Shown one piece after another: positions 1-54,935 of a DNA stretch of 64,000 bases; positions within the stretch are counted from its first letter, which is position 1, and each line of letters starts with the position of its first letter. Under the pieces are notes generated by a model, which was not told the origin of the DNA, searched no databases, and worked only from the letters and a program-made list of their open reading frames with translations. This DNA comes from Scenedesmus sp. PABB004 (lineage: Eukaryota). The DNA lies in contig CM026547.1 of the NCBI GenBank assembly GCA_014905635.1, positions 4,464,001-4,528,000 of the forward strand. The letters are read 5' to 3'. Both the position numbers and the translations under genes were made by a program.

Positions 1-1593
1 GGCCTCGTTGGCGAGCAGACCGGTCGCCCACGCGCTGATCGCGGCGGCGCTGCGCTCGCCCTGGTAGGCCTGCCAGCTGGTGCTGCCGGGGGCGAGCGCC
101 ATGATCGTGGGATAGCCGCGCACGCCCTGCAGGCAGCGAGCGGCGCGGGCGGCACGCGTCGGTCGCACGCCGCACCACGCACGCGCGGCGCGCGCGGCGC
201 GGCGCGCGGCGGCGCGGCGGCGCGCGCGGCGGCGCGCCTGCGCGCTGCAGATGCTCTTGTGGTCGTCGCAGTTGATGGCCGCGACCTTGACGACGCCGCG
301 CAGCGCGCCCGCGACCTTCTTCCACTTGGGCGCGAGCTGCTGGCAGTGCCCGCACCAGGGCGCGTAAAACTCAACCAGCCACACCCAGCCGCTGCCCGCG
401 CCGCCGGTGGGGAAGCTGTCGCCGTCGAGCTGCTCCACCGCGTCGCCGTCGCCGTACAGGCCGCCGGCGCCGCCGCCACCGTGGCCGCCGGGGTGCCCGC
501 CGCCGCCGCCGCCGCCGCCGCCGGGGAAGCCGCCGCCGGGGAAGCCGCCGCCGCCAAACTGGAACCCCCCGCCGCCGCCTGCGGGGGCACGCGGCGCGGC
601 GCGGCGCGGCGCAGCGTCGGCGCCGGCGCCGGCCGGCGCGGCGGCTGCTGCGCGCGGCGCGGAGGCAGGCACGCGACGGCGGGCGCGCACCGCCCATGTT
701 GAACTGGAACTGCCGCCCGCCGCCGCCGCCGGCCCCGCCGCCGCCGCCGCCGCCGCCGAAGAAGGCGTTGAACAGATCAAACGGGTCGCCCTGCGGGGCA
801 GCGAGGCGTGGCGGCGCGCCGACGCCGTGAGGGGCCGCGCCGCGCCGCGCCGCGCCGCGCCGCCTCCGCCGCCGCCCGCGCCGCCGCCGCCGCACGTGGA
901 ACTGGAAGCCGCCGCCGCCGCCGCCGCCCGGGCCGCCGCCGCCGCCCTGCTTCAGCCCCTCCTCGCCAAACTGCGTGGCGGCGCGGCGCGGCGGCGGCGC
1001 GGCGCGGCCGGGTCGGGGCGCCGTTGCCGCCTGCGCAGCCCGCGTGCCGCCGCCGGCGCGCCCCCTGGTGTGTGGGCCGCCGTGGCCGCCGCCCCTGGCG
1101 CGCCTGATCGTACACCCGGCGCTTCTCGGGGTCGCTCAGCGTCTCATACGCGGCGGCGACTTCCTTGAATTTCTCCTCGGCCGCCTTCTTGTCCGACGTG
1201 TGGCGATCGGGGTGCCATTTGCTGCGGTTGGCGGCGGCGCAGCGGGCGCTCGGCGCGGGCGGCGGGTGGCGCGGCAGCGGCGCGCCGGGCACAACCGCTG
1301 CCGCTGCCGCTGCGTCGGCGCACGCCCGCGAGCCCCTCCCTGGCGGCCGTGAGCGCCGCGCCAGCCGGCGCCCGCACGGCCTGCGCTGCGGCGGCTGCCG
1401 CGGCCGGGAGAGCCTTCCAGGCCCCTGCTGCTGCGCACAGCGCCTGCTTCTTGTAGGCGCGCTTGATGGTCCGGTCATCCGCGTCCTGGGAGATGCCCAG
1501 GATGTCGTAGTACTTGCTGCTGCGCGCCGCCTGGGCCGGCCCGCAGCACGCAAGGGCGAGCGCCAGCAAGATGATGGCCGCGCCTGCACGCAT
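1..1593 (-). CDS. ER-luminal DnaJ + thioredoxin-domain protein (ERdj3A/TMS1-like), multi-exon, 3' end outside window
   Basis: Signal peptide [19 protein letters not shown]-domain [46 protein letters not shown]-rich region; thioredoxin [24 protein letters not shown] and GVRGYPTI. Confidence 0.9.
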
Positions 1594-4027
1594 GCTCGCC
1601 ACGCCCCGCGCAGGAGCGCCGGGCAGTACGCGGCTGTTTGGTCGGGGCGTACCGCTGTGGCCGGCTGCGCGGCGGCGACGGCAACTGCGCGGCGCCGCAC
1701 GGCCGGGCGCGCGGAGGGACAGCGAGGCGCGGCGCCGCCGCGGGTTTTTCAGTTGTTCGGTTGCCAGCTGCCGCGCCGGCGTGAAAAAACTCCCATTCGC
1801 GTCCGCCATGCGCACGTCCTGCTTGCTTGCTGCTTGCTGCTGCTGCCGCGCGGCCGTCGACGGGGCGCGCGCTGCCGGGGCGCGTCGCTCGCCGCTGACC
1901 GAGCGGTCAAAGGGGGCTCGACGTTGCGTTGGGAGTGTTAGTGTTTTAGTGTTAAACACAAAGGGGTAGTAGACAACACAACGGTGAAGACAAGTAGTAC
2001 CAGAGCTGCAGACACACAAGGTCGCGCACGCTTGGCGGCGACGACCCGGCCGCGCGGTGTGGGCCGAGGAACACAACACTGGTGGACGCACGCACATCCG
2101 CGCAGCCACGCGCGCGCTAGCGCGCCGCGCGCGAACAAACACCCACACGCCGTAGTATGCCTCCGGTTCAGGCCTGCACCTCAGCTGCAAGGCCGCCAGT
2201 CACCACCCCGAAGAACTCGGTACGCAAGGCTGGAGGGGTGGGGGTCCCAGTGCGCGCGCGCCTGTGGTGGCAGGCGCGCACACGGGAGGCAGCCCGCGTG
2301 CACGAGGGCGGCGGCGGCGCTCACAGCAGCCGCGCACCACAAGCGCACGGCAGGCCGCAGGTCGGGAAAAGAGGGGATGGGGGCCAAGTTGTGTGGCCGC
2401 AGCAGTCCCTCCAAGCCCAGCGTTCCTCCAAGCCCAGCGTCTCGCGCACGCGCCTCGCCCCGCCAGCAGTGTGCTGCGTGCGAGGCGAGGCGCGGAGCTG
2501 TCGCCCACTCCCACGGTCCAAAGCCAGCGGCCGAGGCTGTCACGAGCCCGGCGCTGGGACAGAAGATGCGGCTGGGACAGACCGGTAGATGCGGCAGTGC
2601 ACGCTCGGAGGCGTCGCGGGGGGCCAGGACCCCCGCCAGCTCAAGAGAGCGGCCGTGCGCGCCAGCGCCGACGACGACGCGCACAGCCAGCAGCGCCAGG
2701 TCGCAGCAGAAGGCATGTGTTTGGCCGCAAGTGACGCGGCAACAGTCTGTCGGCAGCACAAACAAACAACAACAAGCTCATGATGTTGCAACGCGTGTGC
2801 GCACGAGTGCGGGCAGTGCCCGGCGTTCACATGCCGAGGGGCAGCCTGCTGCAGCTGCCGCGCGAGGTCTAACCAACAACCGCCCGGGACGCCGCGAGAT
2901 GCCGAGCCGAGTGCAAAGCAGATCGGACATGATGTGCGCCGCCACGCCCGCGTGGCGCGTGCGCCGTGCGGCGGGGGGTGGCGGCGCTCAAGTTCCGCGT
3001 CAGCCCCCAGCAACTGTCGCGCGTGTTGTACACACAGTTGGTTGGGGGCTGCGCTGCGCTGCGTGCGAGCCACATGACACGAGCCCAGCCATATATATGT
3101 GGTGCCCACACCTGCTAGTCAGCCGTGGCGAGGCGTGCGACTGGCGATGGCTCCGCTCGTCTGTTTGCCCGTGGCCCAGGGGAGAGCCGTGCATGCGTTG
3201 CGCTCGGTCGCGCCGCGGGGGCCGAGAGCGCGCGCCGCCGCGCGCCGCTGCTGTGCACAGCTTGTTCGTTGAGCCACGCAGCAGCACGCGCGGCGGCGCA
3301 GGGGCCAGCATCAAAACTCGGCTAGGGCTATCCAGTCGACGAACGCACGCGTGGCCCGTGCACGCTGCAGGGGCCACCAGGCGCCCAGACCAGACCACGG
3401 AGCAAAAACGGCCGTGGAGGCAGCTACCCCGCAGCGCGCAGCGCGCGCCCGGGGGGAAGCAGAAGAAGGGTGAAGCAGACGCCCCTGCGGGCGCGTCAAC
3501 GTGCGTGCCACGGCGTGCGCGCGCCGCAGGGCCGCCGGACAGGTGCTGGCCGGCGACCGCAGCCGGCGCCGCGCGTGCAAGACCGGTCCTGAATCACACC
3601 CAGGTTTGGCTCAACAACACCGCCTCCCTCAAGACCACACAGACTTTCCCTCGCATCCCTCAGCCGCCTGCCGCCGGCGCACCACCGTGCGCACAGCAGC
3701 CAACGCAGCCCAAACGGCGCACCTCCGCGTGCACAGCCAAAGCAGCCCAAACGCCAGCTGCGCCCACGGGAGGCATAACCCGAACTCGCTGGCTCCGCCA
3801 CTCCATGCGCACGGCGCATCGGCGGGCAGGCATGGCGCCTGCCGCCGGCGCGGCGCTGTGCTGCGCCACCTGCAGCCACACACGGCCACCACGCGGGGCC
3901 ACAACATGAGCCATGCACCACATCATCACCACACCAAGTTGGGTCACGAGCTGATCAGTCACGTTAGATGTGTGCCGAGGCGGGCACGCGTAAGACGATC
4001 GCGCGCCTCGCGGCGAAGCCGCCCCCC

Positions 4028-5373
4028 TCACCAGGCAGGCCGCTGCCAGGCCGGCGCGCCCACGCAGGGCGCTGCGACGGCGGCGGCCGCAAAGAGCGAC
4101 CCCGCCGCCTCCTCGCGCTCCACGGCCATCGCCTGCTTGCGCAGCGCGTGCAGCTCGTCCATGAGCGCCCGCAGCTGGTCAAACTGCGCGGCCAGCGCCT
4201 TCAGGCGCGCGCCGACGGGCGCCGGCCCGGCCGGCCGCGGCGCCGGGGGCTGCGCGGGCTGCGGCGGCACGCCGCCGGCCAGCGCGCCCGCCGCGGCGAG
4301 CTCGCGCATGATCGCCGCCTCGAGCTCCTCCTCGCTGGCGTCGCAGCTCGCGCCGCTGCCAGTGCTGCCGTCGCTGGCCAGGCCGCCCATCTCGTCAGCG
4401 AGCATGCGGTCGAGCATCGCCGCCGTGGCGGTGGGCTCGGGCGGCGTCAGCGCTGCCGCCACCCCCGCCCAGGCCGCCGAGCAGCCCCCGGCACTGCCCG
4501 ACAGCTGCGACAGGGCCGGCCCGGAGCAGCCCGAGCCGCCCTGCGCAGCGGCGGCCGCGCCGCCGAGCTGCCACTCGGGCGGCAGGCAGCAGTCGCTGCT
4601 GTCGTCGGCATGCAGGCTCGCGCTGCACCAGGCCTCCGCCAGGGCCGCGGCCGCGTCGGCGGGGCAGGGCGGCGCGGGCGCGGGCGCGCGCGCCGCCGCG
4701 GGGAAGCACGCCGGCGCGCCGGACCAGCAGGCGCGCTTGAGCGCGTTTGCCTCGTCCGCGTGGACCTTGCGCTTGATGAGGCTCGCGCGGCAGCTGCGCT
4801 TGGCACCCTCAAACTCGGACAGCAGCTCGAGCTTGCCGCACTGCTGGCAGAAGCGCCACAGGTCGTCGCCGCAGCCCTCGCACCGCACGGCGTCGGCCTG
4901 CGCGGCGCGGCGCGGCGGGTCAGGGGGGTCGGCGGGCAGCGGCGCGCTCTCTGCAGGTGGGCGGGTGGGCGGCGCCGCCCGCCCCGCCGCGACCGCAGCA
5001 GCTGCCCCCCGCGCACCTTGAGGTGCTCGGCGCATACGCGCTTCTTCAGGCAGTACGACCTGCCCAGCGCCTGCAGGTCCACGCCGCAGCCGGCGACCTG
5101 CGCGCGAGGCAAGAGGCGCCGGCGGCGGCGTCAAGCGGTGGGTCATCGCCGCGCGACGGGCGCCCTGGTGACACCGCCCCCGCCGGTGCCCGCACGCGTG
5201 CTGGCCAGCACCGGGAGAGCTCTCCCGGGCCTGTCGTGCGCTGCAGCGCCCCCGCGCGGGCGCACCCGGCAGAGCTTGCGTGCCCGGTCGGCCGGGGGCA
5301 TGGAGAAGGCGCCGCAGGCATCGGGCTTGGCCTTGTTGCCTGAGGGATAGCATGGGACGGCGGTGTCAGGCAT
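4028..5373 (-). CDS. SBP (SQUAMOSA promoter-binding) domain transcription factor, 3 exons; start ATG 5373 or 5301
   Basis: Spliced LCR|VAGCGVDLQALGRSYCLKKRVCAEHLK|ADAVRCEGCGDDLWRFCQQCGKLELLSEFEGAKRSCRASL matches the SBP consensus; TGA at 4028-4030. Confidence 0.85.
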
Positions 5374-6200
5374 CGCGGGGCCGCGAGGACGGCACTACGG
5401 CTGCGATTTGCGTTCGCACTGATGTCGCGAAATATCCAGGTTTCGTGCGTCGCCCCGGGCCCCCCCGCGGCGCACGACGGCGGCCGGATGCCGCCGTGCC
5501 ATGCTGGAAAAACGACCGGACGCGTCCGCGCGGCGCGGCGGGCGCGCGGCGGGCGCGAGAAGCCGCCCGATGGGCGCGGGCATGCGCCCACCCCCCGGCG
5601 CCGCGCGGTGCGCCGGGGCCCGGCCGACCCTCGCATCGCGCTGGCTCAGGCGTCTCACCGCTCATCTGGCACATTCTCTCGCGCCCGGGGTTGCCTGGGC
5701 GTCGATTGCAGTGCAGGGTGGGCCGCGAGCTCAGCCGCGAGCTCAGCCGCTGCGCCTGCGCGCTGGGACGTCTTCGACCACGCTGCGACTGATGTGCGTG
5801 TCCGCCGTGCCGCTGCGCCGCTGTTGTTGGCGGTGCGCTGTTGGCTTAACTATCGGCTCTGCTAGCGCGTGTCCTGGGTCTCGTGGCTCGTCGGGGGGTG
5901 CGTCGTTGAGATGCGATGTGCGGGCGCCGGCGCGCGGCGGGGGGGAGGGCCGCTGCGCGGCGCGCGGACCCGCGTTCAGCGCACCGAACCTGAACGGCTT
6001 GCACGCTGAGCGCCTGCGCCGCCGCTGCGGCGCGCGCCTGGCCCATTGGTGCCGGGGTGGCGCGAGCAACACGCTGGCCGGCACGAGCGCGGGCGCCGCT
6101 GCTGGCGTGCGCGCATAACTGTAAGATAAAGGCCAGGCACTTGCGGTCACTCAGCTGCCAGTGTGATGCGCCGCCGTGGCCCCGCGGCGCAGCAACGCAC

Positions 6201-7909
6201 TCAGCCCAGCGCCACCTCGCGCCCAAACACCCAGCTGAAGCACGCAGCGCGCCCGCGGTCGCGCCGCCGCGCGCGCGAGCGGGCTTCGCTCTGCAGCTCC
6301 GCCAGCCGCCGCAGTGCGGCCGGGTGCTCCAGCAGCCACGCCGCCGCTGCCGGCGCCTCGTCCTCGCACAACGCACCGCTGTCGCTCGCATCCGCCAGCT
6401 CGGCCACCTGCGGCGGCAGCAGGCGCGCGTCGCGCGGGGCACGCTGTGGGCCCGCAGCGCGCTGTGCGACCCGCCCGCGCCCCTCTCGCATTGCGAGGCT
6501 CACGGCCCGCGCAGCCGCCCTGGACAGCTGCGCCGGCCCGCCCTCTGCCGCGCGCGCCCAGCACGAGCCACGCCGAGGCTGGCGGCGCACCCGCCACATG
6601 CCGCACCACTGCTCCACCGCGTCGGCGACGTCGCTCGCGCTCAGCGCGCCCAGCGCCTCGGCGGCGGCCATGGCATCAACGTAGAGCGCCGAGCCGCGTC
6701 GGCACGGCGTGCCGGCGCCAGGCGTGCCGCCGCCCGGCGTGCCGGCGCCCAGCGGCCGCGCCGCCGCGGCGCTGCCCCCGTCATGCCAGCCGCCGTCGTC
6801 CATCGCGGCGCCAGGCATCAGCACGCCGTGCCGCAGGACTGCCGCGAGCGCCTGCGTCGCGCCGCGCCGGTCCACCGCAAAGAGCTGCGACACGATGGCC
6901 GCCTGGCGGCGGCGGCGGCGCGCGGCGGGCGGGCCCCCTCGGGCGTGAGCCAGCGGCGTCGACGCCGCCAGCGCTCGCCCGGCCCCGCGCTGCGTTCCTG
7001 GTGCGGTCGCACCAGGACGCGCGCACAACACACCTGTGCCACCTCGTGTCGCGCCCCGCCGTCGGCGACGGCGGCCGCGACGCGCGCGAGGCGGCGGCCG
7101 CCGTGATACCGCGCCGAGGCCGCCAGGTTGCCGGCCAGGACGCGCGACATGCGCGCCTGCGCGCGCCGCGCCGGGCGCAGCCGGCGGCCGCGTCGCGCGC
7201 TGCTCGCGCGCTGCTCGTGCCCCCGCGCAGTGCGGCGCGGCGCGGCGCGTCCCGGGGCGCCCAGCGAGCCCGCCTCTGGCCGTCTGCCGCGCCGCACCTG
7301 CACCAGTCCATGCATGATGAGCTCGTACGGCTGAGCCGCCCAGCCGCTCGCGTCACCGGCGCCGATGGCGGTCTGCATGCTCACCTCCAGCGCGCGCATG
7401 TGCAACGCCCCGCAGCCGCCGCAGTAGCTCAGCAGCGCCGCGCGGTGGCGGCTGCGGTCCGCCGCCCACGCGCGGAGCCAGCGCGCCCACGGCCGCGCGT
7501 CGGCGCCGCTCGTGGCGCCCAGCACCGGCGCCGCGCACCACGCGGACAGCTGGTTGGGCAGCGTCGACGCTGAGACCGTCAGCGCCGCGACGACAACCAG
7601 CACGTCATCCGGCAGGCGGCGGCCCTCTGCCCGCAGTTCGGCGAGCTGCTTCAGGAAGTCTGGCGACCCCGGGTCCGGCAGGCCCGCGTCGAGCGGCGCC
7701 GCCGGTGCCTCGAAGCGGGGCAGCTGCTGCGCCGCCCAGGGCATGAGGCCCTCCAGCACCTCCGCCTGCCGCCGCTGCACCTCCGCCTGCTGCGACTGCG
7801 GGCGGCGCGGCGCGCCCGCTGCCGCCGCCGGCGGCGCTGCTGCTGCCGCCGCTGCCGCCGAGCCGCGGCAGCGGCCGCGCGCCGGTCGCGGGAGCTGCGG
7901 GCGGAGCAT
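6201..7909 (-). CDS. Acyl-ACP (stearoyl-ACP) desaturase homolog lacking diiron glutamate ligands; about 4 exons
   Basis: Colinear with SAD/FAB2: LPDPGSPDFLKQLAELR..LPDDVLVV, WARWLRAWAADRSRH, RHE, QLFAVD, MPGAAMDDG, C-terminal FSWVFGREVALG*; N-terminus resembles a transit peptide. Confidence 0.8.
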
Positions 7910-8142
7910 GCTGCACGCGTGGCGCAGGCTCGGGGCGGCTGGGCACGCAGCTGATCGGCCGTCGTGCTGCCCCGGCGGCGGTCTGCACGGCTCTGAAAAC
8001 AAGCGCGCAGCTCGGCACTTGGTCGCCGTGGGCAGCGGGACGCCGGAGCAGGTGTTGCGAGCGCGGCCGGCGGCGCGGTTCAGGCCCACCCCGCCAGCGT
8101 GCGGCGGCGCCCGTCGGCCGCTCCGACTCGCGCGCGCATGCA

Positions 8143-8557
8143 CTACCGCCAGCGCTCGCGGCGCGGAAGCAGCTTGCCGCCGGGCGCCGCCACACCTTGC
8201 CTGCGCGCGTGGGCGGCGGCGGCGGAGCGTGGGCGGCTGCCGCGGCGGCGCGCAGCTGGCCGAGGGCCCCGCAGCGCGCGTCGCGCGCGCGGCTCGCTCA
8301 CCGCACGTAGACCACGGCCAGCACGACGAGCACCGCCAGCGCGAGCACGAGGCTGTTGGTGGCCGGCAGCCAGCGCCCGCCGCGCGCCTCGGCGGCGGCG
8401 CCCTGTATCCGAATGACCGGGCTGCCGCCGTCCTCGCCGCCGGCGCTGCCGCCACCGCTCCTGTCGCTGGGCTCTGTGCCCGGCTGCGCTGCCGCGCCGT
8501 CGCCGCCTTTGCCCGCGTCGCCGCCGCCACCTGCTGTCGGCGGCGACGCACCGGCAG

Positions 8558-8597
<40 letters not shown>

Positions 8598-10629
8598 GCC
8601 TGTTTGCGCCGCCGCCGCCGCCGGCGGTGGCTGCCCCCCAGGCGGCGCGGCTGCCGCCGCTGCCCCTGCGCCCTCGCCCGCCGGCGCGCCCGCGCCGCCG
8701 CCGGCGTCGAGGCCGGCGTGCTTAAAGAGCGGCCAAGTCGCCGGGTGCGTGGGCAGCAACTCCACGAGCGCCAGCAGCGCGCGCACCCAGAGCGTGACGA
8801 CCGACTCAAAGCCCTCGCGCGTCGTGGGGTTGAACATGCGGAAGCAGTCCTCAAAGCTCGCGGCCTCGTCGCCGTAAATCTCCCACGTGAATGACATTGG
8901 CACGCCCAGCACCTCCCACATGTAGTCGGTGCCCGTGCCGTGCGCCAGGTAGCTGCGGCGGCGGCGGCGGGCGCGGCGGCGGCGCAGCGGCGGCGGTGAG
9001 CCGCAGCACAGAGAGCCGGGCGGGGCCACGGCGGCTCGCGCCTGGCCCGCACGCGCGCACCCGACGCTGTGGCCGCCGGAGCCAACGACGCACTGCGGGC
9101 ACGCGAGCTCCTTCACGCGCTGCAGCATGCGCAGCGCCGCGGCGGCGTCGGTGGTGTTGGGCACCATGGGCTTGTGGTCGTACGGCGTGAACAGCGCGAA
9201 CATGCCGCTGTGCACGTTGAGCCACGTGTGCGGCTGCAGCTCCTTGGCCAGCGCCAGCAGGATCTGCACCTCCGGCTCGCTGACACGCGGCGCGGCGCGG
9301 GCGGCGGCGGCGGAAATCGTGGCGCCGACGATACGACCGGGCGGCGGCGGCCGGCCGCGCGCGGCGGCGGCGGCCGGCCGCGCGCGGCGGCGGCGCGCGC
9401 ACGGCGGCGGCGCGTGCACGGCGGCACCTGTGCGGGGCCTTGCCGGGGAACTCTTCTTTTGGGTCGTAGTCCTTCTCCTTCTTGCCCCAGTCGATGTCCC
9501 AGTTGCGGTTGGTGTCCACGCCGCGCCCGTTCTTGCGCTCGCACAGCGCGCCGCCCTCGACGAGCGCCCGGCCGTTGACGTTCTCCATCGGCAGCACCTG
9601 CGGCGAGCGCAGGCGCGGGGCGGCAGCCGATCGCGTGCGTGGGTGTGGAGGAGGAGGGGGGTCTGCCCGCTGCCCGCTGCCGGCTGCCGGCTGCCGGCTG
9701 ACCGCCGCCCTGTCCGCGCCGGCGTGCTGCCGCCGCCGCTGCCGCCGCCGCTGCCGCCGCCGCGCGCCTTGAATACGGTGTGCTCGAGGATGGTCCGGAG
9801 GCGCGCCAGCCGCGCCCCGCCGCCCACCAGCGCCTCCAGCTGCGCGGGGTCGGCCAGCACCTGCGCCGGGGGCGCGGCAGCCACACCGTGAGCGCTTGCG
9901 TGCGCCGCCGGCGCGCCCCGTCGTGCACGCCCGCGCACCTGCAGCAGGCGCAGCCCCACTTCGCTGCTGATGAACTCCCGCCCGTGCTCCCCAAAGTCCT
10001 GCGAGCGCGGGCGGGCAGCGGTGGGCGCGGCACGCCGCCGCCGCCGCCGCCGGCGCGGGCGCGGCGGCCGCACGCAGCCGCCGCCGCGAGCAGCTCACCA
10101 CGAGCAGGCGCGCCTTGGTGCGGTGCGAAGGGCTGAGCCCGCCCAGCTCCACCGTCACCACCTGCGGGGCCGCGCGCGCGTCCCAGCTCACCGCGCGGGC
10201 GCAGGCGCGGCGCGGGCGCGCCGCCGGCCGCTGTGGCTGCTGCTGCTGCCGCGCGGCGCTGGGCGAAGGCCCCCGGGGCGCGGTGCGGCGCGCCTGCAGG
10301 TCTGCCTTGTAGTCGCCGTCCGCGGCGTGGCGCAGCTCGAGCTTCATTATGTCGGGGTGCTCCGCCACGAGCGCCTCGACCTTCGACAGCAGCTCCGTCC
10401 TGCAAGCCGCGCCGCGCGCGGCGGTTGGGGCGCGCCGCGCGGCGGCCGGGCGCGTCGGCAGGCGGGCGGCGCGCGCGGCGCACTTGCGCAGGTAGAGGGA
10501 GTAGTCCGGCTGGGCCAACGCCTTGCGGTGCGCCGGCTCGGCGGCGGCCGCGGCGGCGACCGGCGCCGCCGCGAGCGCGAGCAGCGCGGCCGTGAGCAGC
10601 GCCGCCGCCGGGGCGCGCGCGCACGGCAT
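8143..10629 (-). CDS. Zinc carboxypeptidase (M14 family) with signal peptide and C-terminal TM anchor, multi-exon
   Basis: FGEHGREFIS (HxxE), ERKNGRGVDTNRNW, SEPE, NVHSG, GTGTDYM, FTWEIYG; hydrophobic LVLALAVLVVLAVVY; last exon 8200-8143 splices in frame to TAG. Confidence 0.9.
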
Positions 10630-11418: not shown

Positions 11419-14400
11419 ATGGCCGACGCCAATGCGGCCATCTACGACCGCTGGTTCAAGGTCGCCGACGCCGACCAGGACGGCCGCGTGACCGGCGCCG
11501 ACGCGGTCGCGTGAGCGCCGCCGCCGCCGCCACCGCCGCCGCTGCCGCCGCCGCGGGGGCCGGGCCGCGCGCAGCCCTCGGTGTCCGCCGTGCGCGCCCG
11601 CGCCGAGCCGCGGCGCCGCGCCGCGCCACGCCCGCCGCGTAGCTTCTTCCAGCGCAGCGGACTGCCCAAGGAGGTGCTGGCCAAGGTGTGGGACCTCGCC
11701 AACAGCCAGCGCGCCGGCTACCTGGACCGCCCCGCCTTCCACAAGGCGATGGGGCTCATCGCCCTGGCGCAGAGCGGCAAGGACGTGACGCGGTGCGGCC
11801 CCGCGCGCCGCGCCACAGCCGGCCGGCCCGCGCGTCGCGGCCGCCCCATGGCGGCGGCGGCAGCCGCGCGGCGGGCTTGCTGAGCCATCGCCGCCGCCGC
11901 CGCCGTGGCGCGCGCAGCGACAACTACCTGGCCGCGCTGGAGGAGGGCGTCGCGCTGCCCACAATGGCGGGCCTGGACCTCCGGCCCTCGGGTGCGACGG
12001 CGGCGGCGGCGGTGGCGGCGGAGCGGGTCCCGGCCGGGCCCTGCGCCGCAGCAGCCAGCCAGAGGGGCCGGCAGCTGCCTGAGCCCGGCCCCGCCCGCGC
12101 CCCTGCCGCTCGTGCGCGCAGGCGGCGGCACGCACCCCCGGGCGCGCCCGAGCCCGGCGCGGGCGCGCCCGCGGCGGCGCCCGGCCCCGCCCGCGACGCC
12201 GCGTCCAACGGCGGCTACGCCTCGCCGCGCGCACGGGTGCGCGCCGCGCGAGCGCGGGCCGCGCTCGCGCGGGCCCTGCCCGCGCCGCGCCACGCCCGAG
12301 CCGCCCGTCGCCGCGCGCCGGCGCCGCAGCCGCCGCAGCAGGAGGCCGCGACGCCGCCGCGCGGCAAGGGCGGCAAGAAGCCGCTGCCGGCCAAGGTCGT
12401 GACCTCCATCATCGACGGCCTCAAGGCAATCTACTTCTCAAAGGCGAGCCGCCTTGGCCTGCCGGCATGGCACGCGCGTGCATTGCACGCGGTGCCCGTG
12501 GCGCCGCGCCGCGCCGCGCGCGGCGCCGCGCGCCGCTGTTGCGCCCGCTCGGCGCCGGCGGCGCGCGCCGCGGCCGCGCACGAGCCCCGCCGCGGCCGCG
12601 CCGCGCCGCGCAGGTGCGGCCGCTGGAGGACGCGTTCAAGTTTGGCAGCTTCTTCAGCCCGCTGCTCACGGAGAGCGACTTTGAGGCCAAGCCGAGCGTG
12701 CTGCTCCTCGGCCAGTACAGCACAGGCGCGCGCGGGCGCGGGCGGGGCGGCCGCGTGGCCCGCCCGCCAGCCCTGCCCGCCAGCCCCGTCAGCCCCGCGC
12801 GCCGTGGGCCGCCGCCCGCCGGTCACCGCCGCCGCTGCTCGCGCCGCGTGGCGCCAGGCAAGACCACGTTCATCAAGTTCCTGCTCGGCACTGACTACCC
12901 GGGGTGCCACATCGGGCCCGAGCCGACGACCGACCGGTGCGCCGCGCCCCCGGCCGCGGCGCCTCGGGCGCGGCGCACGCTGGGCCCCAGGCCCACCGCC
13001 GCGCGCCCGCCGCCCGCCCGCGCGCCGCGTGTCGCGGCGCGCAGGTTTGTGGTGGTGCAGCACGGCCTCGAGGAGCGCCGCACGCCCGGCAACACGCTCG
13101 CGGTGCAGCCCGACAAGCCCTACCAGGGGCTCAGCATGTTTGGCACGGGTGCGACCTAGCTAGCACCGCCGCCGCGCACGCGACACCGCCGCCCGCCACC
13201 ACCCCGCGCCGCGCGCCGCCGCGCCCCGCCCCACGCCGCCGGCCGCCCCTCCCTGCTCGCGCCGCGGCCAGGCTTCCTCTCGCGCTTCGAGGGCGCCTCG
13301 TGCCCCGCCAAGCTGCTGGAGGAGATCACCATCATCGACACGCCCGGCGTGCTCAGCGGCGAGAAGCAGGCGCGCGCCGCCCCCGCGCCGCCGGGACGCC
13401 GCCGGCCGAGCCCGCCGCCGCCGCGCCCGAAGCACCCCCGTGCAGCACACGCCCGCCGACGCGCGCCGCCGCCCACCGACGCGCGCCGCCGCGCCGCTCA
13501 ACGCGCCGCCGCCCGCCGACGCGCGCCGCCACACCGGTCAACGCCCCGCCGCCGCCCGTTGCGTGCGCGCGCGCGCAGCGCATCGAGCGCAACTACCAGT
13601 TCATCGACGTCTGCGAGTGGTTTGCGGTGCGCTCCGACCTCATCCTGCTGCTCTTCGACCCCTACAAGTGAGCCCCGCGCGGGCAGGCGGCGGGCGGCGC
13701 GCTGGCTGCGGGTGGCGCTCGCCGCGCGGCGCGCGTCCGGGCGCGCGGGCTGGCCGGCGGCGCGCCCACCCGCCGCCGCGCCCGCCGCCAGGCTGGACAT
13801 CAGCGACGAGTTCAAGCAGGTCATCAGCACGCTCAAGGGCCACGACGACAAGGCGCGCGGGCAGCGCACGCGCCGGCGCCGCCCCCGGCGCGGTGCCCCG
13901 GCGCGCCCCCGCTCGCTGCAGACGCCCCGCTGTTTTTTTCACGCGTGCGCCGCTTGTTGACACGCGCGCGCGCGCACACGCGCAGGTGCGCATCATCCTG
14001 AACAAGAGCGACCAGGTGGACCAGCAGCAGCTCATGCGCGTGTACGGCGCGCTCATGTGGTCCCTCGGTAAGGTCTTCAAGAGCCCAGAGGTCTGCAAGG
14101 TGGGCGCGGCCCCGAGCAGCCCGCGGCGCGGCGGCGTGCGCGGGGCGCTGCCGCCGGCCGCGCAGGGGCACGCCGCGCACGCCGCTCGACCGCGCGCTGC
14201 GCCTCGCTGCGCGCCGCGCCGCGCCGCCGAATGCGCCGCCGGCCGCGCTGCGCCGGCAGGTCTACATCGGCAGCTTCAACGCCGACGCGCCGATCGACGC
14301 GACCAAGAACCCGCACTGCGTGGACCTGTTTGGCAAGGAGCAGGCGCAGCTGCTGCACGACCTCTATGAGATACCCACGCGCTCCTGCGACCGCAAGGCG

Positions 14401-17814: not shown

Positions 17815-17831
17815 CTAGACGGCCCAGCGCC

Positions 17832-19467
17832 ATGCATCACCCGCGGCTGCTGCCCGCGTGAGCGCGCAAGGCGGCGCCGCGGCCCGCCCCAGCTCCCCTC
17901 GCGCGTCTCCGCGCGTCGGGTGGGCGGCGGGCAGCATGTGGGCGCCCCCCGCGAGCGCCGGGCCCGGGCCGAGCGGCCCCGGCGCCGGGCAGGACCTGCG
18001 GGCGCTCTTCCTGGCCGATCAGAGCCTCTACGCCAGCCTGGGCCTGGGCGGGGCCCCCGGCGAGGCCGGCGCGGCGCCCCCGAGCGCGGTCGGGTGGGGC
18101 GGGCAGGCGCTCCCCGACAGCAACGGCTACCGGGTGCCCTGGTTCGGCCGCAACCGCAACAAGGGCGGCGCCCACCGCCAGGCGCGCGCCGCCCACGGCG
18201 CGCGCGGGTGTGAGGCATGCCCAGCAGCCCGCGCCGACGCGCCCGGCGCCCCCGGCGCGGGCGGCCCGGCCTGCGGGCCGGGCGGTCCGGGCGGCGGACG
18301 CGGAGGAGAGGCCAGCCCCGGCGACGCGCTGAGCGTTGAGGAGGCGGTCGCGCTCGTGCGGCGGCTGCCGCGGGGCGACCCGCTGCCGGAGCGCCTCATG
18401 CGCGGCCTCGCGCACCTCGACAGCCGCGCCGTGGCGCTGCTGCTCAAGGACCTCGCCAAGGCGGGCCTCGACGCGCGGTCGTTCGAGCTGTTTGACGCGC
18501 TGCGCGCGCTCCCGGAGCGCCACCCGCTGCGCCGCCACTGCGACGTCTACACCTACACCGCGACGATCTCGCTCTGCATCTACCAGCAGGCCGCCGACCG
18601 CGCGATGGAGCTGCTGGGCGAGATGCGGGCGCGCGGCGTCGAGCGCAACGTGCACACGTACACGGCGCTCATGAATGTGTGTATCAAGTGCGGCCGCCTG
18701 CCGTCGGCGCTCGACATCTTTGCCGCGATGAAGGCCGAGGGCTGCACGCCAAACGTGGTGACCTACAACACGCTCATCGACGTGCACGGCAAGCTCGGGC
18801 AGTGGGAGCGCGCGGTCGGGGTGCTCAAGCTCATGCGCGACGAGGTGCGGACGACGCGCGGCGCCGGCGCCGGCAGCGCGCACGCGGCGGCAGCGGCAGC
18901 GCGGCAGCGCGGCGGCAGCGGGCGGCGCGCGCGCGCCGGCGCGCTCACGCCCGCGGCGCGCCCGCGCCGTCGCCGTCGCACCGCGCAGGGCGTGTCGCCG
19001 GCGCTGCGCACGTTCAACACGCTGATCATCGCGTGCAACATGTGCAACCAGCCGCGCGAGGCGCTCGGCGTGTACGGCGAGCTGCGCGGCGCGGGCTTTG
19101 AGCCCAACGCGACGACGTACAACGCGCTCATCAGCGCGCACGGCAAGCTGGGCCAGCTCGACCGCGTGCTGGAGGCGTACAAAGACATGGTCTGGAAGGG
19201 CCTCGAGCGCAGCGTGATCACCTACTCGTCCCTCATCAGCGCGTGCGAAAAGGCGGGGCGCTGGGAGACGGCGCTGCAGCTGTTTGGCGAGATGCAGCGC
19301 GACGGCTGCGCCGCCAACACGGTGACCTACAACAGCCTCATCACCGCCTGCGGCCAGGGTGCGCGCGCCGCGCGCGCCGCGCGCGCCAGGCGGCGGCGGC
19401 AGCGGCGGAGGGCGGGCGCGCGCCGCCGCGGGCAGCCGCCGGCCCCGCAGGCGCCGGCCCCGCCGAC

Positions 19468-19510
<43 letters not shown>

Positions 19511-21389
19511 GCGCGCAGGCGCGCAGTGGGAGAAGGCGCGCGCCGTGTTTGAGCAGATGCAGGCCGCCGGGTGCACGCCCGACGTGGTCACGTACACGGC
19601 GCTGATCAGCGCGCTCGAGCGCGGCGGGCAGTGGCAGCTGGCGGTCGACGCGTTCACGCAGATGGTCGCCCGCGGGTGCCGCCCCGACGCGATCGTGTAC
19701 AACGCCATCATCGACGCGCTGTGGCAGACGGGCGTCGTCTGGGCGCAGGCCAAGGCGCGCGAGCTGTTTGTGGGCGCGATGAAGCAGGGCTACTTCCGCA
19801 ACGCGCGCCTCAGCGCCGACGGCGGGCGCAGCGAGCTCAACCTGCACGCACTGACCGCGGGCGTCGCGATGCTCAGCCTGCACAGCTGGCTGCAGGACAT
19901 CCAGTGAGCGCGCGCGCGCGCCGGCGGCGGCAGCAGCAGCGGCGGCGCGCCGCGGACGCGCCGCGGCGGCGCGGGGCGCCCGTCCCGTCGCGCGCGCGCC
20001 GACCGCGTCCCGCCGCCCGTCCGCGCGCGCGCGCGCGCCGCAGGGCCAAGGCGCTGAGCGGCGGCGACGGCGCGCTGCCGCCGGTCGTTGCCGTCGTGAC
20101 CGACGCGGGCGCGGCGAGCCGGGAGCAGGGAAACTTCATCATCAAGGAGGCGGTCGCCACGCTCACCGCGTTCTGGGGCGCGCCCTTCAGGTGCGTGTGT
20201 GCTCGCGCGCGCGGCGTGCGGCGTGCAGCCGGCGCGGCGTGCGGCGCGGCGCGCGGCTGCTAACGCCGCCGCCGCCGCTGCGTGCGCCGCGACGTCGCCG
20301 TCGCAGGGCGGTGCAGGACCACACCTACCTCGGCGTGCTGGAGGCGCCCGGCCCGCAGCTCGCGGCGTGGGCGCGCAGCCCCGGCTTCTCCGCGGCGATT
20401 GCCTCGCTCTTCCCGCCCGGCACCGCCGACGCGGGCAGCGCCGAGCCCCGCGCCGCGGCGCAGCGCGAGTTCAGCGCGGCGGCGCAGTGCGGCGAGGCGT
20501 TTGGCGCGGTCTCGCGCTTCGAGGCGAGCCACAGCCTCGCGCTGCAGAACATGACGCTCCCGTTCCTGCAGCAGCGCACGGCGCTCATCGGGGCCATGCT
20601 CGACAAGGGCACGGCGCTGGGGCTCAAGGACGAGGTGGTGCACGACGGCGTGCTGCTGCTCGACCGCGCCGCGTCGACCGCCACGCAGGTGCGCCGCGCC
20701 GGGAGCCGCGGGCCCGCCGCGCGGCAGCAGCAGCAGCAGCCGCGGCGGCTGCCGCTCGCGCGCCGCCGCTCCCTCCCCCCGCCTCCGGCGCTGACGCCGC
20801 CGCCGCCGCCGCCGCCGCTCGTGCGCCGCCCTTCCCAGATGACTGCCGACGTGCTGCCGCTGGTCGCGGCCGCCGCGCTGCAGCTCGCGCTGTCGGCGGC
20901 GGGCCCGGCGGCCGACGCGCCCGCGCCGAGTGCGGCCGCGGTCGCCGAGGCGTGGGGCGTCGAGGCGCCGCGCCTGCTCGACATGTGCTGGCAGCTGCAG
21001 ACGCTGCTCAGCGACGACACGCTCGCCATCAGCACGATGCGCTGCCTCAAGGTCTACCTCGAGCGCATGGGCTACCGCTACCTGGACCGGCAGGGCCTGT
21101 ACGTCATGGCCGGCCTGCCCATCATGCTCGCCGTGGAGGCCCTCTTTGACATGAGTCTGCTCAACTGCCGCCCGAGCGTCGTCGCCGCGGCGCTGCTGTA
21201 CGCGGAGCGCCGCCAGCGCGGCGCGGTGCCGTTCTGGCCGTCCAGCCTCGCGCGCCTGACCGGCTATGAGGACCTCACCACGCCCGAGCTCGCGTGCGCG
21301 GTGCGCGCGGCGCAGAAGCTGTGCCGCAAGGCGCTGTACGCCCAGATCTACCGCGCGCAGAGCACCAGCCTCGCCGCGGCCTCGGCGTC

Positions 21390-51281: not shown

Positions 51282-52077
51282 GGCGCCCCCCACGCGGCGA
51301 GGCGCTGCGCAGCGCCGCCGCTGCTGCCGCGCGCCGCCGCCGCCGGCGCTGCTGCGGCTGCTGCTGCCTGCACTGCTGCGCACTGCTGCGGGCGTGTGCA
51401 GGGCGCGCTTCGGCAGGCGGGAGGCCCCGGGCCTGCGCTGCAGGGGGGCGTCCGCGGGCAGTGATGGCCTGGGGCCGCGCCCTGGGGCAGCGCCTGGTGC
51501 GCCGGTGTGGCCGAAGGGCGGAGACTTGCGGCGAGGCGGAGAGGGGTCGCGGCCTGCGGTCTGCGCGTGGCCCGCGGGGTGCGGCATCGAGCTTTTGCGG
51601 TCCAGGCCGGTGCAGGGCCCTCGCCGAGGCCCGCCGGCCGCTCCAGGCGCTGCGCCCGTCGACGCTGCCGCACACACCCGCGCGCGCAGCCGTCGCCCCG
51701 GCCCCTGCTGCTCGGCGGGTGCTGGTCTGGCGCGCCACCGCTGCCCGCGCTTGATCGCGGCGCCCACGGGCCGCGGCTCCCCCGTCCAGCCTTCCAGGCG
51801 CTGCAGCTGAACCAACTCTGCGCCCGCCCAGGCGCGCAGACGGCCCCGCCGCTCCGGCGCGGCGCGACAGCAGCGGCGGCGCCGCGAGCGGGCGCGCCCC
51901 CGGCGCGCCGCGCCCGGCCGCCGGCGCCGCCCGCTCCTGACGCACGCCGCTCCGCCGCCGCCGCAGGGTGCCGCGGCGCAGCGCGGGCGCGCCGGCAGGG
52001 GCCCGGCCAGCGAGCAGCTGGAGCGAGCGAGCGGCGGCGCTGATGGTCGGCCAAGCCGCCGCGTGAGCCGGAGCACG

Positions 52078-54891: not shown

Positions 54892-54935
<44 letters not shown>

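What the first reader, a model, noticed from the sequence alone, without database searches (positions are those of the whole stretch)
6201..7909. Intact acyl-ACP desaturase paralog lacking all four diiron glutamates: candidate regulatory pseudoenzyme
Seen: an intact spliced ORF colinear with soluble acyl-ACP desaturases through to the terminal FSWxFxRxV motif. By-eye alignment to the castor-numbered ligands (E105, E143, H146, E196, E229, H232) gives ITEEALP->VSASTLP, EENRH->DRSRH, FQER->VQAR and DEKRH->GGARH. All four Glu are lost and both His are kept. Established: these enzymes are diiron homodimers. Inference: this protein cannot desaturate, yet it has no stops or frameshifts. It may heterodimerise with FAB2/SAD, bind acyl-ACP or ferredoxin, or act as a sensor of plastid fatty-acid flux.
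Basis: partly seen in the sequence, partly recalled or inferred. Interest (0 to 1): 0.75.

Follow-up and report, generated by a model that had tools for sequence, protein, structure and literature searches.

The report
Iron-site-less desaturase paralog, green alga
This green-alga gene encodes a full-length copy of the plastid fatty-acid desaturase that has lost the residues that hold its two iron atoms, and similar copies kept in several related algae suggest a protein that still does something other than desaturate.

Summary
A four-exon, minus-strand gene (7909..6201, 417 aa) matches soluble acyl-ACP desaturases end to end: 190 bits against a profile of 48 canonical homologs and Pfam PF03405 at E 3e-26. 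At the six castor ligand positions it reads A, R, H, A, G, H, so all four Glu are gone and both His are kept.

The window is ~79% GC, and 33% of all codons in the six frames lie in stop-free runs of 417 codons or more. Better evidence for an intact gene:
- three GT..AG introns that restore colinearity;
- a coding GC1/2/3 signature in every exon but not in the introns or flanks;
- start and stop placed as in orthologs.

The gene belongs to a clade with proteins of Flechtneria, Raphidocelis, Monoraphidium and Chromochloris (SAD2, Cz13g17200). Every member with the N-terminal half lacks E105; the other ligands are lost lineage by lineage. Chromochloris SAD2 is transcribed.

Best reading: a conserved, catalytically dead desaturase-fold protein. 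Its role is unknown, and a regulatory role was not tested. Expression in this organism and dN/dS could not be obtained.

The parts
6201..7909 (-). Whole gene: 4 exons, 3 introns, ATG at 7909..7907, TGA at 6203..6201; 417-aa acyl-ACP-desaturase-like protein
7298..7909 (-). Exon 1 (residues 1-204): Ala/Arg/Pro-rich N-terminal presequence (residues 1-38, 7909..7796; plastid targeting inferred, not tested), then the first half of the desaturase domain
   Evidence: Pfam E 3.1e-26; PDB phmmer 4e-18; GC1/2/3 .81/.62/.92
7568..7570 (-). Codon GCG, Ala114, at the castor E105 ligand position
7454..7456 (-). Codon CGC, Arg152, at the castor E143 (bridging Glu) position; Arg is shared with the Raphidocelis and Flechtneria orthologs
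7445..7447 (-). Codon CAC, His155 = castor H146, kept
7157..7297 (-). Intron 1: 141 nt, GTGCGG..GCGCAG, in frame and open. The Flechtneria transcript-derived protein P0011 stops a few residues after the same point, as if this intron were read through
   Evidence: flat GC1/2/3 .89/.83/.89
7034..7156 (-). Exon 2 (residues 205-245): holds Ala205 (E196 position, 7156..7154), Gly238 (E229 position, 7057..7055) and His241 (H232, 7048..7046)
   Evidence: phmmer to castor 1oq4_A residues 200-237 (weak alone, E about 1, but colinear); GC1/2/3 .88/.63/.93
6903..7033 (-). Intron 2: 131 nt, GTGTGT..CGCCAG. Its removal is needed to shift into the frame in which homology continues
6591..6902 (-). Exon 3 (residues 246-349): includes the MPGAAMDDGGWH motif and a Gly/Ala/Pro/Thr-rich insert of about 28 residues (about 6785..6699) that canonical desaturases lack; orthologs carry inserts of variable length at this place
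6408..6590 (-). Intron 3: 183 nt, GTGCGC..CCGCAG, in frame and open. It is supported by colinearity with orthologs and by its flatter codon-position GC
6201..6407 (-). Exon 4 (residues 350-417 plus stop): ends LRRLAELQSE...FSWVFGREVALG*, with the stop at the same position as in orthologs (..REVSLG*, ..REVALG*)

Best explanation
The gene encodes a conserved, catalytically dead member of the soluble acyl-ACP desaturase family. It keeps the desaturase fold, probably sits in the plastid, and cannot assemble the diiron centre, so it cannot activate O2 or desaturate.

It belongs to an old paralog lineage, the 'SAD2' lineage known from Chromochloris zofingiensis. That lineage lost ligand E105 at or near its origin and has since shed the other ligands one lineage at a time. 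The window's copy is the most stripped one found.

Because the rest of the protein has been kept across distant algae, it most likely works by binding rather than by catalysis. My split of the odds:
- about 0.3: it pairs with the active desaturase, or with itself, through the family's dimer interface and so modulates or titrates desaturase activity;
- about 0.25: it binds acyl-ACP or a lipid in the retained substrate channel;
- the rest: some other non-catalytic role.

Shown: homology, gene structure, ligand loss, the ortholog clade, and transcription of orthologs. Inferred: inactivity, plastid location, function by binding.
For: (1) Full-length colinear homology: 190.8 bits against a profile of 48 canonical homologs and Pfam PF03405 at E 3.1e-26.

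(2) Only 2 of 6 ligands are kept. Positions E105/E143/H146/E196/E229/H232 read A/R/H/A/G/H. These six residues are named as the iron-binding residues of castor SAD in a passage of PMC4777478, which prints the last as 'H237'. Two further columns that are >=90% conserved in canonical homologs are also changed only in the window copy: W of WQP is deleted and D228 is Gly.

(3) The gene looks live:
- three GT..AG introns, one of which (131 nt) is needed to restore the frame;
- all four exons have GC2 .62-.65 against GC3 .90-.93, like the PPR, M14 and MARCHF6 genes of the window, while the introns (.89/.83/.89.84/.77/.86.89/.74/.84) and flanks are flat;
- start and stop align with those of orthologs.

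(4) Ortholog clade. In a 57-row tree the window protein groups at SH-aLRT 99 with Flechtneria rotunda P0011, and at 99 with Raphidocelis P0010, Monoraphidium minutum P0161, fragments P0162 and P0163, and Chromochloris Cz13g17200 P0009. Ligand states:
- Chromochloris K E H E E H;
- Monoraphidium A E H E D H;
- Raphidocelis A R Q E G H;
- Flechtneria A R H then truncated;
- window A R H A G H.
All 5 members with an N-terminal half lack E105, against 3 of 149 other homologs.

(5) Orthologs are expressed. Cz13g17200 reads 27.6-29.4 at 0 h and 18.5-19.2 at 6 h of salt stress; SAD1 reads 50-57 rising to 735-1282 (supplement file 12 of PMC7161124; units were not in the rows I saw). P0011 derives from a transcriptome assembly.

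(6) The fold is kept in the closest full-length ortholog. The AF2 model of P0010 has mean pLDDT 81.4, and Foldseek matches castor 1afr_A at E 2.5e-19, TMt 0.90.

(7) A predicted complex of P0010 (residues 48-442) with the canonical Gonium desaturase P0013 (residues 105-455) scored 0.94, with the best of 3 controls at 0.10. That mark was reached by 51 of 78 solved complexes and 2 of 108 mismatched pairs. The runs agree in >=97% of contacts, and partner pLDDT is >=84. Desaturase homodimers are solved, so the pass may come from likeness. It also used a cross-species stand-in and the ortholog, not the window protein.
Against: - No expression data exist for this organism.
- No close relative was found, so dN/dS could not be computed.
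- The open frame itself is uninformative.
- The window copy keeps the fewest canonical-invariant residues of the clade: 19 of 33, against 21, 25 and 24 of 34 for the orthologs. That also fits ongoing decay.
- Loss near the ligands (7 of 16 kept) versus elsewhere (12 of 17 kept) is only a trend.
- Predicted dimer-interface positions are no better conserved than the rest: window versus canonical majority 25/66 against 101/265; window versus P0010 31/66 against 125/276. A canonical pair shows 38/64 against 122/268, p 0.05.
- Residues encoded by AT-rich codons are not kept preferentially: 11/24 against 55/152, p 0.37.
- The clade is small (7 sequences, 3 of them fragments). No orthologs were recovered from other Scenedesmaceae, so the gene may be dispensable in many lineages.
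- In Chromochloris, SAD2 does not follow SAD1 induction. This argues against an obligate activating partner.
Confidence: 0.65

Rival explanations
1. A duplicate that is decaying in this lineage. The clade may be functional elsewhere, but the window's copy is a young unprocessed pseudogene that has not yet acquired a stop or frameshift, which would be hard to see at 79% GC.
For: Stop-free frames of this length are commonplace in the window (33% of all codons). The window copy is the most degenerate clade member: all four Glu, W of WQP and D228 are lost, and it keeps 19 of 33 invariant columns. No expression evidence could be obtained for this organism.
Against: - There is no frameshift inside any exon across 378 aligned residues.
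- All three introns keep GT..AG.
- ATG and stop sit at the orthologous positions.
- Each exon keeps GC2 about 0.63, well below intron and flank GC. Long neutral drift under this GC pressure should erase that.
- The terminal branch (0.52) is not longer than those of sister lineages: P0010 0.43, P0009 0.65, P0163 0.98.
Confidence: 0.17
2. Still an enzyme. Either the metal site has been rebuilt from other residues (for example D151 and D236 next to the lost ligands, plus the two His), or the fold now supports a different, iron-independent chemistry.
For: Both His are kept. Asp sits one residue before the E143 position and two residues before the E229 position. The clade's persistence shows that some function is selected.
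Against: - No acidic residue replaces or neighbours E105 (VSASTLP) or E196 (VQARMS).
- On a helix, a shift of one or two residues points a side chain away from the centre (general structural knowledge, not tested here).
- Arg at the bridging E143 position would put a positive charge where the metals sit.
- Ligand states differ between orthologs (K/A; E/R; H/Q; E/A; E/D/G), which is the pattern of a site released from constraint, not a rebuilt one.
Confidence: 0.05
3. Artefact: a wrong gene model or an assembly error creates the apparent ligand losses.
For: The model was built by eye and script without transcript data. E196->A depends on the exon1/exon2 junction.
Against: - Three of the four losses (E105, E143, E229) lie inside exons and do not depend on splicing.
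- Reading through intron 1 puts Val, not Glu, at the E196 position.
- The spliced spacing Q-x8-GN equals the canonical spacing.
- Independent orthologs from other projects show the same kinds of loss.
Confidence: 0.02

Closest known systems
Castor stearoyl-ACP delta-9 desaturase (RcSAD1; PDB 1AFR, 1OQ4) and other plant and algal acyl-ACP desaturases, Pfam PF03405
   Same: Colinear over the whole domain up to the C-terminal FSWxFxRxV. The ortholog model superposes on 1afr_A at TMt 0.90. Both His ligands and many framework residues are kept (W139, R145, Q195, P of MP, W before the last helices).
   Different: All four Glu ligands are replaced (A, R, A, G). The WQP Trp and D228 are lost. There is a 28-residue low-complexity insert after the MPxxxMxDG loop. 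Identity to the canonical majority residue is 37% (126 of 337 columns).
Chromochloris zofingiensis SAD2 (Cz13g17200), listed in the literature as a second stearoyl-ACP desaturase
   Same: Same clade (SH-aLRT 99). It shares loss of E105, Ala at T140, the DDGWH motif and the ..REVSL(V/G) end. The passages read say that the species also has SAD1 (Cz04g09090), that SAD1 has a much higher transcript level than SAD2, and that SAD1 is considered the major source of 18:1 (PMC8126118; PMC7161124).
   Different: Chromochloris SAD2 lacks only E105 (Lys instead) and keeps the other five ligands. The passages I read of the two papers treat it as a desaturase and do not mention the ligand change.
BADC proteins of plant plastids (biotin-attachment-domain proteins that resemble BCCP but lack the biotinylation motif)
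   Same: By analogy only. They are a dead paralog of a plastid fatty-acid-synthesis component that binds the active complex and modulates or stabilises it (passage of PMC10440990). This is what the window protein may work like.
   Different: Unrelated fold and pathway step. No interaction has been shown for the desaturase-like protein.
Mycobacterium tuberculosis DesA2 (PDB 1ZA0), a 'putative acyl-ACP desaturase'
   Same: A desaturase-fold protein whose desaturase function is in doubt (title seen; the doubt itself is recalled, not read here).
   Different: Only a weak structural match to the ortholog model (E 1.5e-02, TMq 0.41, 15% identity). It is bacterial. As I recall, it keeps its metal ligands.
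SAD-like proteins with Lys at E105 and Gln at H232: Pedinophyceae sp. YPF-701 CAG9461243.1 (P0029) and metagenomic P0070
   Same: They share Lys/Ala at E105, Ala at T140 and a non-Glu at E142 with the window's clade. A tree that holds them together with the clade has a log-likelihood 16.3 higher than the free quick search, p-AU 0.75.
   Different: They keep E143, H146 and E196, have different C-termini, and sit on very long branches (1.54 + 0.82), so the grouping may be long-branch attraction. The group was named after the data had been seen.

Membership tests
Soluble acyl-ACP desaturase (Pfam PF03405 FA_desaturase_2), as a homology family | Significant, colinear sequence match over the domain | tested here: met
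   Pfam E 3.1e-26, above the gathering score (92.4 against 22.7 bits). Custom profile 190.8 bits, positions 6-345 of 351.
Soluble acyl-ACP desaturase, as an enzyme (EC 1.14.19.x) | Six diiron ligands: E105, E143, H146, E196, E229, H232 (castor numbering) | tested here: not met
   The positions read A, R, H, A, G, H, so 2 of 6 are kept. The ligand list comes from a passage of PMC4777478.
Soluble acyl-ACP desaturase, as an enzyme | O2- and ferredoxin-dependent desaturation of acyl-ACP | not testable with these tools
   Needs recombinant protein and an assay.
Soluble acyl-ACP desaturase | Desaturase fold (four-helix-bundle core) | tested here: inconclusive
   Tested only on the Raphidocelis ortholog P0010: pLDDT 81.4 and TMt 0.90 to 1afr_A. 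The alignment given to the predictor included canonical desaturases. The spliced window protein cannot be handed to the fold tool.
Soluble acyl-ACP desaturase | Homodimer | tested here: inconclusive
   The predicted P0010:P0013 heterodimer scored 0.94 against a best control of 0.10, but like complexes are solved. Interface columns are not preferentially conserved in the window protein.
Sphaeroplealean 'SAD2' ligand-deficient clade (defined here) | Groups with Cz13g17200, Raphidocelis GBF91352.1 and Monoraphidium KAI8462510.1 to the exclusion of canonical desaturases | tested here: met
   SH-aLRT 99 for the 7-row clade in a 57-row tree. Caveat: four of the rows have an odd amino-acid make-up.
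Sphaeroplealean 'SAD2' ligand-deficient clade | E105 not Glu, and Ala at T140 | tested here: met
   In the 7-row group (five clade members with this region plus P0029 and P0070), 7 of 7 have a non-Glu at E105 and Ala at T140. Among other homologs, 3 of 149 lack Glu and 7 of 148 have Ala.
Pseudogene | Stop codon, frameshift, lost start or lost splice site | tested here: not met
   None was found. The absence of stops has little weight at 79% GC.
Pseudogene | Loss of the codon-position composition signature | tested here: not met
   Exons read .81/.63/.92; introns and flanks are flat.

The most novel reading that the evidence does not exclude
Green algae carry an old, so far undescribed family of desaturase-fold proteins with a defective iron site. 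It would comprise sphaeroplealean SAD2 and perhaps also the pedinophyte Lys105 proteins. These would act as non-catalytic subunits, pairing with the active stearoyl-ACP desaturase, or holding acyl-ACP, to set how much 18:0 is turned into 18:1. That would be a BADC-like brake on desaturation, released when SAD1 is induced under stress. In Chromochloris the SAD1:SAD2 transcript ratio rises from about 2:1 to about 55:1.
Probability: 0.2. Interest if true: 0.75.

Novelty: new variant of a known kind. Interest (0 to 1): 0.52.

Why it matters
Stearoyl-ACP desaturase sets the ratio of saturated to unsaturated fatty acids in plastids, and it is a standard target in algal and crop oil engineering. A conserved dead paralog would be a new player at that step. 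If it binds the active enzyme or its substrate, knocking it out or overexpressing it could shift oil composition.

It also bears on annotation. Chromochloris 'SAD2' and its relatives are listed as desaturases or hypothetical proteins, although they lack one or more iron ligands. Three full-text searches found no paper describing an inactive acyl-ACP desaturase paralog in algae.

The graded series of ligand states, from one ligand lost to four, is a natural record of how an active site erodes after its first loss.

Tried and rejected
- Own genome: none is held, so I could not look for the canonical desaturase of this organism. tblastn of three desaturases against the window finds only this locus.
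- Close relatives for dN/dS: the metagenome scan with exon 1 gave 594 pattern matches, none confirmed. The word-based search with the window protein found only distant grass desaturases (6 hits). The search with Flechtneria P0011 found only P0011 itself.
- Test for retention of residues encoded by AT-rich codons against GC pressure: 11/24 against 55/152 match the canonical majority, p 0.37, not informative.
- Test for extra conservation at the predicted dimer interface: none in the window protein.
- Poly(A) signal TGTAA: 3 on the + strand, 0 on the - strand, 3 expected per strand, not informative.
- Plus-strand frames over the locus: 0 of 5 have a Pfam match at E<=0.01. A sixth (7428-8891 +) had none at E<=1e-5.
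- Exon 2 and exon 4 alone have no Pfam hit. Exon 2 alone is only E about 1 against castor chains. Both are placed by colinearity within the full model.
- Earlier notes of this scan: nothing was found by place, by sequence or by words.
- Papers not held: Lindqvist 1996, Shanklin 2009 and Liu 2015. What I say of them is recalled. Of Liu 2015 I saw only the title, in a reference list.
- Gene neighbourhood: it holds no lipid-gene cluster, so I rejected an operon-like context argument.
Full report
THE LOCUS. The window is extremely GC-rich: 0.70-0.83 in every 2-kb bin, about 0.79 around the finding. On the minus strand between 7909 and 6201, three reading frames carry pieces that resemble soluble acyl-ACP desaturases. 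Pfam FA_desaturase_2 (PF03405) matches the frame with exon 1 at E 3.1e-26 (92.4 bits, profile 2-161 of 325). It matches the frame with exon 3 at E 3.1e-05 (profile 203-240). The third minus frame tested has no match. All 8 PDB sequences matched by exon 1 at E<=1e-3 are plant acyl-ACP desaturases. Five plus-strand frames over the locus have no Pfam match at E<=0.01, and a sixth had none at E<=1e-5. tblastn with three desaturases finds no second desaturase-like locus in the 64 kb.

GENE MODEL. Joining 7909..7298, 7156..7034, 6902..6591 and 6407..6201 gives a 1254-nt CDS of 417 codons plus TGA. The three introns are 141, 131 and 183 nt, each GT..AG. The 131-nt intron is required to move into the frame where homology continues. 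The other two are in frame and open, so frame alone cannot prove them. Two things support them. First, the spliced protein aligns as a single domain (residues 39-416 to positions 6-345 of 351) to a profile I built from 48 canonical homologs, at 190.8 bits, with the same spacing as orthologs. Second, each of the four exons has the codon-position signature of real genes in this window: GC1/2/3 of .81/.62/.92.88/.63/.93.80/.65/.92 and .82/.62/.90. For comparison, PPR reads .64/.53/.96, M14 .68/.54/.94 and MARCHF6 .85/.58/.94. The introns (.89/.83/.89.84/.77/.86.89/.74/.84) and flanks (.71/.74/.73.77/.81/.82) are flat. The Flechtneria protein P0011 ends a few residues after the point that matches the exon 1 donor. 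Fragments P0162 and P0163 turn to unrelated sequence after the point that matches the exon 3 donor. I read both as read-through of introns at conserved positions; this is an inference, since I did not see their DNA.

WHAT THE OPEN FRAME IS WORTH. In this window there are 975 stop-to-stop frames. Of these, 67 are at least 417 codons long, and they hold 33% of all codons in the six frames. 60% of codons lie in runs of at least 204 codons, the length of exon 1. An open frame therefore says almost nothing here. Absence of frameshifts within the homologous exons, intact splice sites, an orthologous start and stop, and the codon signature are the usable evidence.

THE LIGANDS. HMMER alignments to solved desaturases put SASTLP against TEEALP and ADRSRH against AEENRH. 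Against castor 1oq4_A, whose chain numbering is the mature numbering, residues 200-237 align to exon 2, giving D228->G, E229->G and H232 kept. Counting back across the junction gives E196->A. E105 is the Glu that follows T104. Counting along the aligned chain gives the same offset for E105 and H146, and the title of PDB 4v0j names a Thr104Lys mutant. In the 417-residue model the six positions are A114, R152, H155, A205, G238 and H241. A passage of PMC4777478 names E105, E143, H146, E196, E229 and 'H237' (sic) as the iron-binding residues of castor SAD. That the last is H232 is my recollection, and it agrees with the invariant His column. Among the other homologs gathered here, the E105 column is Glu in 146 of 149, E143 in 145 of 149 and H146 in 144 of 146. 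No acidic residue neighbours the E105 or E196 positions. Asp sits one residue before R152 and two before G238. Two more columns that are >=90% conserved in canonical proteins, the Trp of WQP and D228, are changed only in the window copy among clade members. I conclude that a diiron centre cannot form. This is an inference from established knowledge of the family, not a measurement.

RELATIVES. A full HMMER scan of 1.84 billion representatives with exon 1 gave 178 hits at E<=1e-3 and none at E<=1e-30. The best were P0009 (41% identity), P0010 (42%) and P0011 (43%). Their sources name them as follows:
- P0009: Chromochloris zofingiensis Cz13g17200, 'SACPD2';
- P0010: Raphidocelis subcapitata GBF91352.1, 'hypothetical protein';
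- P0011: a Flechtneria rotunda transcriptome ORF. Flechtneria is placed in Scenedesmaceae, Sphaeropleales.
A profile search added Monoraphidium minutum KAI8462510.1 (P0161) and two unnamed fragments, P0162 and P0163.

In a 57-row maximum-likelihood tree (quick search, LG+C20), these six plus the window protein form a clade at SH-aLRT 99. The window protein is sister to Flechtneria at 99, and the nearest canonical protein is Gonium pectorale KXZ42185.1. The tool warns that P0010, P0161, P0163, the window protein and P0011 have unusual amino-acid make-up and that P0011 is a long branch. The grouping is backed by shared states that do not depend on composition. E105 is non-Glu and T140 is Ala in all seven rows of the group (five clade members that cover this region plus P0029 and P0070). 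Among other homologs, 3 of 149 lack Glu at E105 and 7 of 148 have Ala at T140.

A GRADED SERIES. Ligand states in the order E105, E143, H146, E196, E229, H232 are:
- Chromochloris: K E H E E H;
- Monoraphidium: A E H E D H;
- Raphidocelis: A R Q E G H;
- Flechtneria: A R H, then truncated;
- fragment P0162: E and H at the last two positions; fragment P0163: D and H;
- window: A R H A G H.
The simplest history is loss of E105 at the base of the clade, followed by lineage-specific loss of the others once the site was no longer used. Of 34 columns that are >=90% conserved in the 48 canonical proteins, the window keeps 19 of 33, Raphidocelis 21 of 34, Monoraphidium 25 of 34 and Chromochloris 24 of 34; canonical controls keep 33-34 of 34. 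In the window copy, 7 of 16 such columns within four residues of a ligand are kept, against 12 of 17 elsewhere. This is a trend only.

IS THE LINEAGE USED? Chromochloris papers state that the alga has two SAD genes, that SAD1 has a much higher transcript level than SAD2, and that SAD1 is considered the major contributor of 18:1 (passages of PMC8126118). They also state that Cz13g17200 did not change under salt while Cz04g09090 rose strongly (passages of PMC7161124). The supplementary table gives Cz13g17200 as 27.6, 28.1, 29.4 at 0 h and 19.2, 18.7, 18.5 at 6 h. Cz04g09090 is 56.8, 50.4, 51.7 and then 735, 1099, 1282 (units were not in the rows shown). SAD2 is thus transcribed at roughly half the basal SAD1 level. 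The Flechtneria member comes from a transcriptome assembly. Recognisable, colinear orthologs in several families of an old algal order argue for selection on the protein as a whole. This is inference: I could not compute dN/dS, because no close relative was found.

FOLD AND PAIRING. The spliced window protein cannot be given to the structure tools, so I used the closest full-length ortholog, Raphidocelis P0010. Its AF2 model has mean pLDDT 81.4, with 270 residues at >=90. Residues below 50 are confined to 1-37 and to the Gly/Ser insert 297-344. The model matches castor 1afr_A at E 2.5e-19, TMt 0.90 and 29% identity. The input alignment contained canonical desaturases, which favours that outcome.

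A predicted complex of P0010 (48-442) with the canonical Gonium protein (105-455) scored 0.94, with the best of 3 controls at 0.10. The tool's mark was reached by 51 of 78 solved complexes and 2 of 108 mismatched pairs. The runs agree in >=97% of contacts, and partner pLDDT is >=84. Desaturase homodimers are solved and the partner is a cross-species stand-in, so the pass shows likeness to the family dimer, not that binding occurs.

Against a dimer-based role, the 66 predicted interface positions are no better conserved than the rest. The window protein against the canonical majority is 25/66 versus 101/265. Window against P0010 is 31/66 versus 125/276. A canonical pair shows 38/64 versus 122/268, p 0.05.

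HOW IT MOST LIKELY WORKS. Shown: a full-length desaturase homolog with 2 of 6 metal ligands, an intact gene structure, a clade of similarly defective orthologs, and transcription of two of them. Inferred: no diiron centre and hence no desaturation; plastid targeting, from an N-terminal 38 residues rich in Ala, Arg and Pro and free of acidic residues that lies outside the domain match; and function through binding.

I put 0.65 on 'conserved non-catalytic desaturase-fold protein'. Within that, about 0.3 goes to pairing with SAD1 or with itself. The Chromochloris expression pattern fits a titrating partner better than an obligate activator. About 0.25 goes to acyl-ACP or lipid binding. There is a precedent in the same pathway: BADC proteins resemble BCCP, lack the biotinylation motif, and bind and modulate or stabilise plastid acetyl-CoA carboxylase (passage of PMC10440990). 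[quoted passage not shown] 2015; title seen in a reference list; content recalled, paper not held) would make a heterodimer with a dead subunit kinetically meaningful.

RIVALS.
- A copy decaying in this lineage, 0.17. It fits the uninformative open frame and the extreme degeneracy. It is opposed by the splice sites, the codon signature and an unremarkable terminal branch.
- A rebuilt or different active site, 0.05. It is opposed by the lack of acidic replacements and by ligand states that vary between orthologs.
- A model or assembly artefact, 0.02. Three of the four losses lie inside exons.

NOVELTY. Three full-text searches found nothing describing an inactive desaturase paralog:
- 'acyl-ACP desaturase' with 'pseudoenzyme': 0 papers;
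- 'ACP desaturase' with 'EXXH' and 'microalga': 1 paper, on maize desaturases;
- 'ACP desaturase' with 'catalytically inactive' and 'diiron': 1 paper, on bacterial BioE.
In the passages I read, the Chromochloris papers call SAD2 a stearoyl-ACP desaturase. The library lacks most subscription journals, so this is not proof of absence. I rate the finding a new variant of a known kind: a dead derivative of a well-known enzyme family, conserved in a group of algae.

SURROUNDINGS. The neighbours are ordinary nuclear genes:
- DnaJ, 780-2199 (-);
- SBP-domain protein, 4031-5365 (-);
- M14 carboxypeptidase, 8301-10094 (-);
- EHD-like, 12083-13156 (+);
- PPR protein, 17819-19549 (+);
- MARCHF6-like, 23630-25165 (-);
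- profilin, 28.8-30.1 kb (-);
- MutS, 30.7-35.5 kb (+);
- M16 peptidase, 35.6-40.9 kb (-);
- 2-oxoacid dehydrogenase E2, 40.7-44.4 kb (+);
- UBA/FAF1, 49.6-52.8 kb (-);
- AMP-binding enzyme, 61.7-63.4 kb (-).
Nothing here links the desaturase-like gene to a lipid gene cluster.

Noticed in passing
P0029 (Pedinophyceae sp. YPF-701, CAG9461243.1) and P0070 (JGI metagenome): A second pair of desaturase-like proteins with Lys at E105 and Gln at H232, and Ala at T140 as in the window's clade. A tree holding them with the clade is 16.3 log-likelihood units better than the free quick search (p-AU 0.75). This may mean an older, chlorophyte-wide ligand-defective family, or it may be long-branch attraction.
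   Followed up: partly
P0011 (Flechtneria rotunda transcriptome ORF), aligned to window 7298/7297: The transcript-derived protein stops about 10 residues after the position of the window's exon 1 donor, as if intron 1 were retained in the assembled transcript. The intron position seems conserved, and splicing may be inefficient.
   Followed up: no
P0039 (Oxalis oulophora KAM7274022.1, 237 aa): A land-plant desaturase-like protein with Lys at the E105 position (IAKMAQP) and a large internal deletion. It is probably a decayed plant copy, and it shows that E105 loss recurs sporadically.
   Followed up: no
window 1-64000: Extreme base composition: GC is 0.70-0.83 in every 2-kb bin. One third of all codons in the six frames lie in stop-free runs of at least 417 codons, so ORF-based gene finding is unreliable here. 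Codon-position GC (GC2 far below GC3) separates exons from introns well.
   Followed up: yes
window 52001-56000 and 2001-4000: Strong A-over-T skew (AT skew 0.32-0.33 at 52-56 kb; 0.24 at 2-4 kb, where GC drops to 0.70). No Pfam match was found in the long frames there.
   Followed up: no
window 8298-10094 (-): The neighbouring M14 carboxypeptidase-like gene carries a run of 12 Gln and long Ala/Gly/Pro-rich stretches within its open frame. Low-complexity inserts seem common in this genome's proteins, as in the desaturase-like protein's insert.
   Followed up: no
window 5728-5751 (+): A direct tandem duplication of the 12-mer GAGCTCAGCCGC lies in the region downstream of the gene's stop codon.
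   Followed up: no
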